Part shown: piece after piece, positions 28,819-29,669 of the stretch
How the letters are laid out: each line of letters opens with the position of its first letter
Position numbering within the stretch: position 1 is the first letter of the stretch
From: a virus
Taxonomy: Duplodnaviria > Heunggongvirae > Uroviricota > Caudoviricetes
Virus record (IMG/VR): IMGVR_UViG_2541047931_000002
Span: 1-31,884 of that record
Direction: 5' to 3' (one strand)
DNA: 31,884 bases
The notes under the pieces: generated by a model
Database searches by the model: none
What the model was told of the DNA's origin: nothing
What the model saw: only the letters and a program-made list of their open reading frames with translations
Translations under genes and position numbers: made by a program

Positions 28819-28903
28819 CTCCTGTTATTTCGAGCAGGAGGGTAACAATAGTTACATAGCAATGTCAACCATAGCAACATCACTTGGTAGTAACATTGGT
28901 TAC
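28819..28903. promoter_or_regulatory. Divergent cro / cI control region with repeated GTAAC-N4-GTTAC operator-like sites
   Basis: GTAACAATAGTTAC (28842-28855) and GTAACATTGGTTAC (28890-28903, abutting the cI ATG); CTCCTG-N10-CAGGAG inverted repeat (28819-28840); minus-strand TTGCTA-17-TAACTA promoter-like hexamers overlapping the first operator. Confidence 0.5.
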
Positions 28904-29578
28904 ATGAAAAACACTATCAGCGAACGTATTCGGAATCGTCGAAAAGACGTTGGATTAACCCAACAGCAGGTTGCGAAAGCAATCGGCATATCTCGTGTAT
29001 CCGTAACAAAATGGGAAAATGGCTCTTCAAAACCTGACGGTGAGAATTTGCATCTACTGTCAAAATTGCTTTCCAAATCTCCTGAATGGATTCTTTATGG
29101 AAAGGACGGTCACGATAAAACCGATGATCTGCGTCTGAATCAGTATCTTTACATTAGTGACAACATCGCCCGGTTGCCCGTTTTAACGTGGGAACAGGCT
29201 GGTTATTGGGATATGAGTTGTCCAGTAACCGAGATTCCTGGCATTAAGAATTGGGTTGATGTCATGACAAAAACCGCTGAAAACTCTTTTTTATTGCATG
29301 TTGAGGGAGATGCGATGACAAACTCTAACGGCCTCCCAACCATCCCCGATGGATCTACCGTGCTGATCACACCATGCTCAAGTAACATTAGAGAACTGGT
29401 GGGAAAAATAATCTTAATCCAATTGGAAGGAACGCCAAACGTAACACTAAAAAAAGTTGCGATTGACGGACCAAACATCTATCTGTTGTCACTGAATCCG
29501 CTTTACAAACCCATCGAACTGAATGGTGGTTACACCATTAAAGGTAAAGTTTCACAAATACATCAATACTTAGACTGA
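28904..29578 (+). CDS. cI: CI-like repressor (XRE-type HTH plus S24 LexA-like peptidase domain)
   Basis: Frame of ORF 28805..29578; start placed at ATG 28904 (MKNTISERIRNRRKDVGLTQQQVAKAIGISRVSVTKWENG...), aligning with 434/lambda repressor N-termini; C-terminal domain has the Ala-Gly cleavage-site-like EQAG and Lys (TLKKV), but GDAM where the catalytic GxSM is expected. An upstream ATG at 28862 is an alternative start. Confidence 0.8.
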   Translation: MKNTISERIRNRRKDVGLTQQQVAKAIGISRVSVTKWENGSSKPDGENLHLLSKLLSKSPEWILYGKDGHDKTDDLRLNQYLYISDNIARLPVLTWEQAGYWDMSCPVTEIPGIKNWVDVMTKTAENSFLLHVEGDAMTNSNGLPTIPDGSTVLITPCSSNIRELVGKIILIQLEGTPNVTLKKVAIDGPNIYLLSLNPLYKPIELNGGYTIKGKVSQIHQYLD

Positions 29579-29583
29579 GTCAG

Positions 29584-29607
29584 AACCCGCATTCATTGCG
29601 GGTTTTT
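29584..29607 (+). terminator. Intrinsic terminator after the repressor gene
   Basis: AACCCGC-ATTCATT-GCGGGTT followed by TTTTT on the plus strand, 6 nt after the cI stop. Confidence 0.55.
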
Positions 29608-29640
29608 CACGCCCTCAAATGTACCTTTTGCAACATCGTA

Positions 29641-29669
29641 TTGACTCGAAAGGTAACTCTTGTTACCTT
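29641..29669 (+). promoter_or_regulatory. PL-like promoter with embedded operator for the dicBF-side operon
   Basis: TTGACT (29641-29646), 17-nt spacer, TACCTT (29664-29669); the spacer and -10 contain GGTAAC-TCTT-GTTACC (29652-29667), the same half-site pattern as the cro/cI operators. Confidence 0.45.

What the first reader, a model, noticed from the sequence alone, without database searches (positions are those of the whole stretch)
28819..29669. Three GTAAC-N4-GTTAC operator-like sites: two in the cro/cI divergent region and one inside a PL-like promoter past the repressor terminator
The same 14-bp inverted repeat pattern occurs at 28842-28855 (overlapping a minus-strand TTGCTA-17-TAACTA promoter for cro), at 28890-28903 (abutting the cI start, implying a leaderless or near-leaderless cI mRNA as in lambda PRM) and at 29652-29667 (between the -35 and -10 of a plus-strand TTGACT-17-TACCTT promoter). 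This places the dicBF-type operon under direct repressor control from a promoter immediately downstream of the cI terminator.
Basis: seen in the sequence. Interest (0 to 1): 0.45.

Follow-up and report, generated by a model that had tools for sequence, protein, structure and literature searches.

The report
P22-type prophage repressor operators

Summary
GTAAC-N4-GTTAC occurs exactly three times in 31.9 kb (expected 0.03), at 28842-55, 28890-903 and 29653-66.

Comparative evidence supports operators of a P22 immC-type switch:
- All 20 relatives from other genera (repressor 42-53% identical) and three phages keep the same layout.
- Two strong OR sites lie 48 bp apart, as P22 OR1 and OR3 do.
- One site abuts the repressor ATG. 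The true start is therefore 28904, not the 28862 that RefSeq annotates in a near-identical genome.
- A terminator follows the repressor gene, then a weak OL2, then TTGAC-6 nt-operator with its last three bases in the -10.

A sister family (mEp390, YeP1) keeps this layout but changes both the recognition helix and the half-site (GTAGG/CCTAC).

Repressor control of dicBF from such a promoter is already known for Qin (DicA/dicBp).

This is a new member of a known kind. The operator sequence was not found in the searchable literature. Incidentally, the repressor has Ala in place of the S24 catalytic Ser. No binding or transcript start was measured.

The parts
28175..28600 (-). ydaT-family gene downstream of cro (position of a cII-like regulator)
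   Evidence: Pfam YdaT_toxin, E 7.4e-10; RefSeq 'toxin YdaT family protein' in a near-identical genome.
28597..28812 (-). cro gene (71 aa); Shine-Dalgarno GGAGAG at 28823->28818
   Evidence: Pfam P22_Cro, E 2.9e-16; sequence read.
28839..28844 (-). Proposed PR (cro promoter) -10, TACCCT on the minus strand
   Evidence: Relatives have TACCTT at the same position (19 of 22 sequences). It overlaps the outer half-site of O_A by 3 nt, the same register as at PL. Inferred, not mapped.
28842..28855 (.).
   Evidence: Exact match. Top matrix score in the window, 25.0 bits. Relatives have GTAAC-AAAA-GGTAC at the same position.
28863..28868 (-). Proposed PR -35, TTGACA on the minus strand, 18-nt spacer to TACCCT
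   Evidence: Perfect consensus hexamer. Relatives have TTGCTA one base over with a 17-nt spacer.
28865..28878 (.). O_B, a candidate weak middle operator: TCAAC-CATA-GCAAC, 23 and 25 bp from its neighbours
   Evidence: Relatives conserve CAAAC-AACA-GTTAC at these columns, and mEp390 has TCAAG-GATT-CCTAC. In the window it is too degenerate to appear among the 15 best matrix hits. Inconclusive.
28891..28896 (+). Candidate PRM -10, TAACAT, lying inside O_C; a weak -35 would be ACCATA at 28868-73
   Evidence: It occupies the same position as the P22 PRM -10 TAAGAT (P22 promoter annotated at 31673-31701; RM 5' end annotated 4 nt before the c2 ATG). The TAnnAT pattern is kept in mEp390 (TAGGAT). The O_C spacer ATT(G/A) is conserved across relatives, unlike the spacers of the other sites. 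Inferred.
28890..28903 (.).
   Evidence: Exact match. An exact GTAAC-N4-GTTAC is present in 20/20 relatives; it lies at this position next to the ATG in 19 of them, and L002 has a 1-mismatch copy there.
28904..29578 (+). Repressor gene (224 aa from ATG 28904; the RefSeq call from 28862 is probably 14 codons too long)
   Evidence: Pfam HTH_3 and Peptidase_S24. PDB matches: lambda cI E 9.8e-14, P22 C2 N-terminal domain E 2.6e-12. Start codon inferred from in-frame stops in relatives and from the protein alignment. The catalytic Ser position is Ala.
29583..29607 (+). Intrinsic terminator after the repressor gene (9-bp stem, then a T-run)
   Evidence: Fold -15.3 kcal/mol, z -3.8. Relatives have different GC-rich hairpins with T-runs at the same place.
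29621..29634 (.). OL2, a weak operator upstream of the PL -35: GTACCTTTTGCAAC
   Evidence: Fourth-best matrix hit in the window, 10.9 bits; the mean shuffle maximum is 8.6 and the largest is 17.9, so it is not significant alone. Relatives have GTAAC-N4-GGAAC/GGTAC/AGTAC at the same place, 32-35 bp before OL1.
29641..29646 (+). PL -35, TTGACT
   Evidence: TTGAC[CAGT] is found 6 nt before the operator core in relatives. Same register as P22 PL and Qin dicBp.
29653..29666 (.).
   Evidence: Exact match; 23.5 bits. 17 of 18 relatives have a site with at most 1 mismatch 39-107 nt after the repressor stop.
29664..29669 (+). PL -10, TACCTT (17-nt spacer)
   Evidence: Relatives have TACATT (17) or TACCTT (3) at this position. 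It overlaps the half-site by 3 nt, as in P22 (CTTAA/ATT).
29676..29760 (+). Predicted PL transcript start (about 29676) and conserved leader of the early-left (dicBF-type) operon
   Evidence: Homology to coliphages with other repressors starts exactly at 29676 for Evi, and at 29672-29687 across the other hits. In Tritos the element precedes three small ORFs, DicF and dicB; in Evi it precedes uncharacterised early-left ORFs.
30825..30876 (+). DicF sRNA
   Evidence: Rfam RF00039, 61.1 bits against a gathering score of 48, E 4.6e-12.
31051..31239 (+). dicB (cell-division inhibitor)
   Evidence: RefSeq annotation at the same coordinates in a colinear, near-identical genome; the ORF is present in the window.

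Best explanation
The three repeats are the strong operators of a lambdoid prophage immunity switch built like P22 immC.

The proteins. The repressor (28904-29578) has a P22 C2-like helix-turn-helix domain and an S24 domain. As a dimer it would bind 14-bp cores made of a 5-bp half-site, a 4-bp A/T-rich spacer and a second 5-bp half-site. The P22_Cro-family Cro probably uses the same sites.

At OR:
- O_A (28842-55) covers the spacer and -10 of the cro promoter. It shuts off cro, ydaT and the replication genes.
- O_C (28890-903) contains the -10 (TAACAT) and the start point of the repressor's own maintenance promoter. The cI mRNA therefore starts at or within about 2 nt of its AUG. O_C is the site for autorepression and for Cro to turn cI off.
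- A degenerate middle site, O_B (28865-78), overlaps both -35 regions. It may give cooperative binding or activation, as OR2 does in P22 and lambda.

After the repressor gene. A terminator (29583-607) stops cI transcripts. PL (TTGACT-17-TACCTT) then carries OL1 (29653-66) between its hexamers and a weak OL2 (29621-34) upstream. Repressor bound there excludes RNA polymerase. This keeps the early-left operon silent in the lysogen: conserved leader, ydfC, DicF, dicB, ydfD-like gene and exonuclease.

What is shown and what is inferred. Shown here: the sequence, its non-random occurrence, its conservation, its shared geometry with annotated P22 elements, and the joint change of helix and half-site in a sister family. 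Inferred: actual binding, transcript start points, the order of site affinities, and whether the maintenance promoter is activated.
For: - The exact motif occurs three times, only in the immunity region (3 found, 0.03 expected). A matrix built from relatives alone recovers these three sites as the top hits, with OL2 fourth.
- The flanking genes are a P22_Cro-family cro and an HTH_3 + Peptidase_S24 repressor. The repressor matches lambda cI and the P22 C2 N-terminal domain in the PDB.
- All 20 loci from other genera (repressor 42-53% identical) keep an exact site, which lies next to the repressor ATG in 19 of them. O_A lies 48 bp upstream with no indels. A hairpin terminator is followed by one to three sites and by TTGACN-17-TAC(A/C)TT after the repressor stop. 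Phages ZF40, AH07 and vB_EcoS-733R5 show the same arrangement.
- P22 (NC_002371) carries annotated C2 binding sites, PRM, PR, PL and the RM 5' end. It has the same 48-bp OR1-to-OR3 spacing, an OR3 that abuts the c2 ATG, a PRM -10 made of half-site plus spacer bases, and a base-for-base identical PL register: TTGACC, 6 nt, 5-N4-5 core, -10 overlapping the core by 3 nt.
- mEp390 and YeP1 keep this layout, but helix 3 changes from RVSVTKWE to RVTVTGWE and every operator changes to GTAGG-N4-CCTAC.
- Homology to phages of other immunity types begins at 29676, the predicted +1 of PL.
- Qin dicBp has the same operator and promoter layout and is experimentally repressed by DicA (PMC10448788, PMC3441716).
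Against: - No binding, footprint or transcript start data exist for this repressor. I found none in 8 million papers.
- Both -10 hexamers (TACCTT, TACCCT) match consensus at only 3 of 6 positions, and the generic promoter scan flagged neither promoter.
- The middle OR site is very degenerate in the window, so a lambda-like three-site cooperative scheme is not established.
- A perfect palindrome sitting on the repressor's own -10 is an unusual affinity arrangement compared with lambda, where OR3 is the weakest site.
- The PR register differs from that of P22.
- A minus-strand gene (29990-30190) lies between PL and ydfC, and continuity of the PL transcript to dicF and dicB was not tested.
Confidence: 0.85

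Rival explanations
1. Site 2 is not an operator. It is the coding sequence (Asn-Ile-Gly-Tyr) of a longer repressor that starts at ATG 28862, as RefSeq annotates in a near-identical genome, and its conservation is protein-level.
For: RefSeq calls the 238-aa form. Many database homologues are also called with an N-terminal extension ending in NIGYMK.
Against: - In at least 10 of 18 relatives an in-frame stop lies 21-81 nt upstream of the conserved ATG with no start codon in between.
- Several homologues are called from that Met.
- The rest of the 'extension' is not conserved as protein, whereas the palindrome is conserved as DNA, including in L019, where 3 nt separate it from the ATG.
- P22 OR3 abuts the c2 ATG in the same way.
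Confidence: 0.05
2. The third site and its hexamers are not a working PL. The dicBF-type genes would instead be transcribed from elsewhere, by read-through from cI or from an internal promoter, so the repressor would not control them directly.
For: - The -10 TACCTT matches consensus at 3 of 6 positions and was not flagged by the generic scan.
- A minus-strand gene lies between PL and ydfC.
- A weak terminator-like site lies at 30649-70 on the plus strand.
Against: [quoted passage not shown]
- TTGACN-17-TAC(A/C)TT is conserved across genera.
- A conserved terminator blocks read-through from cI.
- The mosaic junction with other phages falls at the predicted +1.
Confidence: 0.08
3. The repeats are chance palindromes, or targets of some other sequence-specific protein: a bipartite restriction-modification or methylase site, YdaT, or a host factor.
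For: A 5-N4-5 pattern superficially resembles bipartite restriction-modification targets. No binding data exist.
Against: - Chance expectation is 0.03.
- The sites are confined to the two promoter regions of the immunity module.
- Their positions relative to the promoters and to the ATG are conserved across genera.
- The half-site changes together with the repressor's recognition helix.
- The DicA operator (TTGTTAG-N6-CTAACAA, PMC3441716) is a different sequence.
Confidence: 0.03

Closest known systems
Salmonella phage P22 immC region (C2 repressor, Cro, OR1-3, OL1-3, PRM/PR/PL)
   Same: - Divergent c2 and cro genes.
- The repressor's N-terminal domain is homologous (PDB 1adr/2r1j, E about 3e-12), and Cro belongs to the P22_Cro family.
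- Operator cores are 5-N4-5 with A-A at half-site positions 3-4.
- OR1-to-OR3 spacing is 48 bp.
- OR3 abuts the repressor ATG. The PRM -10 is built from half-site plus spacer bases, and the RM transcript is near-leaderless.
- The PL register is the same: TTGACN, 6 nt, core, -10 overlapping the core by 3 nt.
   Different: - The half-site is GTAAC, not TTAAG.
- The core abuts the ATG directly; in P22 2 nt intervene.
- The PR hexamers sit in a different register. Here the operator lies in the spacer and -10 as at PL; in P22, OR2 is in the spacer and OR1 is downstream.
- The middle OR site is very weak.
- A YdaT-family gene replaces c1.
- PL drives a dicBF-type operon.
- The repressor's catalytic Ser is Ala.
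Qin cryptic prophage dicA-dicC-dicBp control of the dicBF operon (E. coli K-12)
   Same: - The repressor gene is followed directly by a promoter with one operator between -35 and -10 and another upstream of the -35.
- That promoter drives ydfC-DicF-dicB-ydfD.
- Repression of dicBp by the cI-like protein is shown experimentally (PMC10448788; PMC3441716).
   Different: - DicA is a 135-aa protein without an S24 domain.
- Its operator is TTGTTAGTCATAACTAACAA (PMC3441716).
- ydfA and ydfB are present in Qin but are replaced here by about 600 bp that include a minus-strand zinc-ribbon gene.
Phage lambda OR/OL switch
   Same: - The overall logic is the same: cI and Cro share operators; OR sites are about 23-25 bp apart; the cI mRNA from PRM is leaderless; a terminator lies between the cI transcription unit and PL; PL is repressed through OL.
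- The C-terminal domain is homologous to that of lambda cI (3bdn, E 9.8e-14).
   Different: - Lambda has 17-bp operators of unrelated sequence.
- Here the site over the repressor's own promoter is a perfect palindrome rather than the weakest site.
- No N gene or nut site was recognised downstream of PL.
Uncharacterised sister switches in phages ZF40, AH07 and vB_EcoS-733R5 (same operator) and in mEp390 and YeP1 (GTAGG-N4-CCTAC)
   Same: Identical layout (48-bp spacing, operator at the ATG, terminator-OL2-PL-OL1). The first group has the same half-site.
   Different: - The repressors are only 41-44% identical.
- mEp390 and YeP1 have a different recognition helix and a different half-site.
- I found no experimental operator mapping for any of them.

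Membership tests
P22/lambda-type (lambdoid) immunity switch | Divergently transcribed repressor and cro genes separated by a short regulatory region | tested here: met
   cro is at 28597-28812 (-) and the repressor at 28904-29578 (+), with 91 bp between them.
P22/lambda-type (lambdoid) immunity switch | Repressor with an N-terminal Cro/C1-type HTH domain and a C-terminal S24 (LexA-like) domain; Cro of a known Cro family | tested here: met
   Pfam HTH_3 E 2.2e-16 and Peptidase_S24 E 1.1e-16; P22_Cro E 2.9e-16. PDB matches to lambda cI and P22 C2.
P22/lambda-type (lambdoid) immunity switch | Repeated inverted-repeat operators in OR that overlap the two divergent promoters | tested here: met
   Two exact sites lie 48 bp apart, equal to the P22 OR1-OR3 spacing. 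They overlap the proposed PR -10 and spacer and the PRM -10, and are conserved in 20/20 relatives.
P22/lambda-type (lambdoid) immunity switch | A third (middle) OR operator that allows cooperative binding | tested here: inconclusive
   Relatives conserve CAAAC-N4-GTTAC at the expected position. The window's TCAAC-CATA-GCAAC (28865-78) matches only 3 of 5 bases in each half and does not appear among the 15 best matrix hits.
P22/lambda-type (lambdoid) immunity switch | Operators of the same sequence at a PL promoter beyond the repressor gene, same transcription direction as cI | tested here: met
   OL1 (29653-66) lies between TTGACT and TACCTT, with a weak OL2 at 29621-34. The register is identical to P22 PL.
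P22/lambda-type (lambdoid) immunity switch | Physical binding of repressor and Cro to the operators; mapped transcript starts | not testable with these tools
   This needs EMSA or footprinting and 5'-end mapping. No published data were found.
P22/lambda-type (lambdoid) immunity switch | RecA-stimulated self-cleavage apparatus: Ala-Gly site and Ser/Lys dyad | tested here: not met
   Ala-Gly (WEQAGYW) and Lys (TLKKV) are present. The Ser position is Ala: VEGDAMT aligns with lambda VEGNSMT, whose Ser is the S24 nucleophile by my knowledge of lambda cI. All 23 relatives' loci and most database homologues keep Ser. This bears on induction, not on operator function.
Qin-type dicBF operon under prophage-repressor control | DicF sRNA and dicB downstream of, and on the same strand as, a repressor-controlled promoter placed right after the repressor gene | tested here: met
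   DicF scores 61.1 bits in Rfam; dicB is at 31051-31239; the promoter layout equals that of Qin dicBp. Transcript continuity was not tested.
Qin-type dicBF operon under prophage-repressor control | The repressor is DicA (short, no S24 domain) acting on TTGTTAG-N6-CTAACAA operators | tested here: not met
   The repressor here has an S24 domain and a GTAAC-N4-GTTAC operator. The DicA operator sequence is taken from PMC3441716.

The most novel reading that the evidence does not exclude
This immunity type is a specificity variant of a conserved P22-like layout. Changing two inner half-site bases (AC to GG) goes with a Lys-to-Gly change, plus a neighbouring change, in the recognition helix.

In the E. 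coli/Salmonella lineage the repressor has additionally lost its catalytic serine. That would make a prophage found in about 13% of complete E. coli genomes, together with its dicBF cell-division inhibitors, blind to RecA-mediated cleavage. Induction would then depend on some other route, such as an antirepressor or a Cro-driven flip.

This could explain why no isolated or induced phage in the phage collection carries this immunity region.
Probability: 0.3. Interest if true: 0.5.

Novelty: new member of a known kind. Interest (0 to 1): 0.3.

Why it matters
The result gives a concrete, testable operator map for an uncharacterised immunity type:
- four or five operator sites;
- three promoters;
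- a corrected repressor start codon.

This immunity type is carried by about 700 of 5,426 complete E. coli genomes and controls the DicF and DicB division inhibitors.

It also shows that one P22-like regulatory layout is reused across Enterobacterales with swapped operator and helix specificities. That is useful for predicting superinfection-immunity groups and for designing orthogonal repressor-operator pairs.

The biology itself is textbook: repressor-operator control of PR, PRM and PL, and of dicBF. It would not surprise a specialist.

Tried and rejected
- **Generic promoter and terminator scan.** It flagged none of PR, PRM, PL or the cI terminator, because the -10 hexamers match only 3 of 6 positions and because of its stem and tail rules. 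I therefore relied on comparative registers and a direct fold.
It is present but matches consensus at only 6 of 12 positions. The equivalent columns in relatives read TAACTG and give no -35. I rejected it in favour of TTGACA-18-TACCCT.
- **P22-register PR in the window.** The equivalent hexamers read GTGATG and TGCTAT, so I rejected this too.
- **Literature.** I searched for GTAAC/GTTAC with operator and repressor, for ZF40 operators, and for five exact operator strings. Nothing relevant turned up.
- **Near-identity search of the phage collection.** Only the leader downstream of PL matches; no phage carries this immunity region.
- **Rfam at E up to 1 over 27000-31884.** It found only DicF, plus sub-threshold STnc100; nothing in the PL leader.
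- **Structure of the conserved PL leader.** There is one compensatory pair among 8 relatives, and the window's own leader folds no better than shuffles (z -0.13). Not established.
- **Small ORFs after the leader.** The relatives' MK(M/V/I)GMIR peptides of 7-24 aa and the window's 52-aa ORF are not conserved as proteins.
- **LexA-box scan.** It found 18 hits with at most 1 mismatch against 10.6 expected, which is not significant. One hit lies in the cro leader.
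Full report
**1. Observation**

The pattern GTAAC-N4-GTTAC occurs exactly three times in the 31,884-bp window: at 28842-55, 28890-903 and 29653-66. It occurs nowhere else on either strand. Dinucleotide-preserving shuffles give a mean of 0.03 matches, and none of 100 shuffles reaches three. Relaxing to two mismatches adds only chance-level hits elsewhere.

The third site is the core of a 20-bp perfect palindrome, AAGGTAAC-TCTT-GTTACCTT, at 29650-69.

**2. Gene context**

- The minus-strand ORF 28597-28812 is a P22_Cro-family protein.
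- It is followed by a YdaT-family gene (28175-28600).
- The plus-strand ORF ending at 29578 has HTH_3 and Peptidase_S24 domains. It matches lambda cI (E 9.8e-14) and the P22 C2 DNA-binding domain (E 2.6e-12) among solved structures.
- Downstream on the plus strand lie ydfC, DicF (Rfam 61.1 bits), dicB, a DUF1482/ydfD-like gene and an exonuclease gene.

The 1.16-kb immunity region is at least 80% covered in 702 of 5,426 complete E. coli genomes. No record in the phage collection carries it.

**3. True start of the repressor**

In a near-identical genome, RefSeq starts the protein at the ATG equivalent to 28862. That would put site 2 inside the gene.

A protein alignment showed an oddly conserved 'NIGYMK' in homologues that are only 44-50% identical, while the rest of the 'extension' varies. 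At the DNA level this motif is aac-att-ggt-tac-ATG, which is the operator followed by a start codon.

- In at least 10 of 18 relatives, an in-frame stop lies 21-81 nt upstream of the conserved ATG with no start codon in between.
- The start is therefore ATG 28904, giving a 224-aa protein.
- No Shine-Dalgarno sequence precedes this ATG, and site 2 abuts it.

**4. Comparative test of the operators**

I collected 20 loci from other genera, including Yersinia, Buttiauxella, Erwinia, Kluyvera, Rahnella, Edwardsiella, Klebsiella, Arsenophonus and Celerinatantimonas. Their repressors are 42-53% identical to the window's.

- All 20 contain an exact GTAAC-N4-GTTAC. In 19 it lies next to the repressor ATG. 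In L019, 3 nt intervene. L002 has a 1-mismatch copy there and an exact copy at the O_A position.
- The OR regions of the 18 relatives whose exact site directly abuts the ATG line up without indels.
  - O_A reads GTAAC-AAAA-GGTAC in most relatives and lies 48 bp before O_C.
  - A half-conserved middle site, CAAAC-AACA-GTTAC, lies 23 and 25 bp from its neighbours.
  - The conservation profile peaks on these blocks.
- Downstream of the repressor stop, 17 of 18 relatives share an ordered layout:
  - a GC-rich hairpin with a T-run, different in sequence each time;
  - then a degenerate site;
  - then TTGAC[CAGT];
  - then, 6 nt later, a site with at most one mismatch;
  - the last three bases of that site start a TACATT or TACCTT hexamer.
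- Phages ZF40, AH07 and vB_EcoS-733R5 show the same arrangement.
- A weight matrix built only from relatives ranks the window's three sites first (25.0, 23.5 and 19.4 bits). It places 29621-34 (GTACCTTTTGCAAC, OL2) fourth at 10.9 bits. The mean shuffle maximum is 8.6 and the largest is 17.9, so OL2 alone is not significant.
- The window's middle OR site (28865-78, TCAAC-CATA-GCAAC) is too degenerate to appear among the 15 best hits.

**5. Homology with an experimentally annotated switch**

The P22 record NC_002371 annotates the C2 binding sites OR1-3 and OL1-3, the promoters PRM, PR and PL, and the 5' nucleotide of the RM transcript. Reading its sequence shows the following.

- OR1 and OR3 start 48 bp apart, as O_A and O_C do here.
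- OR3 abuts the c2 ATG. The RM transcript starts 4 nt before the ATG.
- The annotated PRM resolves to AGGAAT-17-TAAGAT. Its -10 consists of half-site positions 2-5 plus the first two spacer bases of OR3.
- The equivalent bases here are TAACAT (28891-96), and in mEp390 they are TAGGAT. This explains two things: why the O_C spacer ATT(G/A) is conserved when other spacers vary, and why the operator is locked to the ATG.
- By the same spacing, the window's cI transcript would start at about 28902-04.
- P22 PL reads TTGACC, 6 nt, TTAAG-AAGT-CTTAA|ATT. The window reads TTGACT, 6 nt, GTAAC-TCTT-GTTAC|CTT. The register is identical base for base.
- K-12 Qin dicBp (TTGACC-17-TAATCT, with TGTTAG..CTAA operators inside the promoter and upstream of it) also has the same layout.

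**6. Specificity changes together with the recognition helix**

mEp390 and YeP1 repressors are 41-42% identical to the window's. They keep the layout: 48-bp spacing, an operator at the ATG, and terminator-OL2-TTGACA-OL1. Their helix 3 reads RVTVTGWE instead of RVSVTKWE, and every operator reads GTAGG-N4-CCTAC or a close variant. A joint change of recognition helix and half-site is what one expects if these repeats are the repressor's binding sites.

**7. Promoters**

- **PL.**
  - Homology to phages with unrelated repressors (Evi, Tritos and others) begins at 29676 for Evi and at 29672-87 overall.
  - That point is 7 nt after the -10, so the mosaic junction coincides with the predicted +1.
- **cro promoter.**
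  - TTGACA (28868->28863), an 18-nt spacer and TACCCT (28844->28839) give a 9-of-12 match.
  - This lies where relatives have TTGCTA-17-TACCTT.
  - It reproduces the PL register, with the operator half-site overlapping the -10 by 3 nt.
  - Either way O_A covers the promoter. This PR register differs from that of P22.
- **Terminator.** The hairpin at 29583-29607 folds at -15.3 kcal/mol, z -3.8.

**8. Mechanism**

The system is a standard lambdoid bistable switch.

- Repressor at O_A, possibly helped by O_B, blocks PR and so silences cro, ydaT and the replication genes.
- Repressor at OL1, with OL2, blocks PL and so silences the leader, ydfC, DicF and dicB.
- O_C over the PRM -10 and start point provides autorepression. 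It is also Cro's route to shut off cI.
- The terminator insulates PL from cI transcription.

For Qin, repression of dicBp by the cI analogue DicA, a DicA/DicC bistable switch, and filamentation on derepression are all experimentally documented (PMC10448788; PMC3441716). The regulatory idea is therefore already known. What is new is the repressor and operator specificity. The DicA operator, TTGTTAGTCATAACTAACAA, is unrelated in sequence.

Not shown here: binding, transcript starts, relative site affinities, activation of PRM, and continuity of the PL transcript across the minus-strand gene at 29990-30190.

**9. Incidental finding on induction**

The S24 domain has Ala where the catalytic Ser should be. 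VEGDAMT aligns with lambda VEGNSMT, and by my knowledge of lambda cI that Ser is the S24 nucleophile. The Ala-Gly site and the Lys are retained.

- All 23 relatives' loci keep Ser (GESMTN or GDSMAN).
- Only the window, its 99% cluster representative (499 members), an 89% E. coli relative and a 68% Salmonella relative have Ala.
- An 87% relative has Ser.

By analogy with catalytic-serine mutants of LexA and lambda cI (established knowledge), this repressor should not self-cleave. The switch may therefore be SOS-blind, like DicA. This could also relate to the absence of this immunity type from isolated phages. This reading is an inference.

**10. Verdict**

The finding is correct and well read, but it describes an ordinary P22/lambda-type operator arrangement with a specificity I did not find described in the searchable literature. 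It is a new member of a known kind, of modest interest. The Ser-to-Ala repressor and the reusable layout with swappable specificity are the only points that go beyond textbook.

Noticed in passing
window 29329-29349 (codon GCG at about 29338-40, within repressor 28904-29578): The repressor's S24 domain has Ala at the position of the catalytic Ser. VEGDAMT aligns with lambda VEGNSMT, while the Ala-Gly site and the Lys are kept. All 23 relatives' loci keep Ser. The Ala form is the dominant E. coli cluster (499 members) and also occurs in a 68%-identical Salmonella relative. The repressor is probably non-cleavable, so the prophage and its dicBF operon may not respond to SOS.
   Followed up: partly
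window 28862-28903: The RefSeq (PGAP) start of the repressor at the position equivalent to 28862 is probably 14 codons too long. The 'NIGY' residues conserved in many database entries are the translated operator.
   Followed up: yes
window 29676-29760; also L026 2001-2085, L027 2001-2079, L030 about 1352-1446: An 85-nt leader starts at the predicted PL +1. It is about 95-99% identical in 11 coliphages with different repressors, and a related element (..CAGGCAGGACGCCCACGAAGTAGCCGCCC(C/G)AGGCG..GGGGATGATTCGC) follows PL in other genera. One compensatory pair was seen (CCCC/GGGG against CCCG/CGGG). There is no Rfam match, and the window copy folds no better than shuffles. It could be an antitermination or processing element; its function is unknown.
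   Followed up: partly
window 28819-28840: The inverted repeat CTCCTG-N10-CAGGAG lies in the cro leader and includes the cro Shine-Dalgarno sequence. It also matches the LexA-box pattern CTGT-N8-ACAG with one mismatch at 28822-37. It is not obviously conserved in relatives. It could be an RNA hairpin that masks the ribosome-binding site, or it could be chance.
   Followed up: no
L029 (mEp390) 496-600 and 1251-1400; L030 (YeP1) same ranges: A sister family uses GTAGG-N4-CCTAC operators in the identical layout, with helix 3 reading RVTVTGWE. This is a natural specificity swap that could define a recognition code.
   Followed up: partly
window 29990-30190 (-): An ECs_2282-family zinc-ribbon gene lies antisense within the PL transcription unit, where Qin has ydfA and ydfB. 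It has a promoter-like site of its own at 30207->30180. Convergent transcription with PL is possible.
   Followed up: no
window 30878-31029 (+): A sub-threshold Rfam match to sRNA STnc100 (32.4 bits against a gathering score of 47, E 2e-4) lies immediately after DicF and overlaps the region upstream of dicB.
   Followed up: no
window 14416-14431: The only exact CTGT-N8-ACAG in the window (CTGTACGGGTAAACAG) lies between the small terminase gene and an HNH endonuclease gene. Its centre is GC-rich, so it is probably not a real LexA box.
   Followed up: no
L025 17950-19186 (related genome NZ_CP185789, colinear with the window near the immunity region): In the related genome the prophage carries two tRNA-Arg genes and an IS5 transposase next to the Q antiterminator gene, as well as hokD and iraM. 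I did not check whether the window has the same insertions.
   Followed up: no
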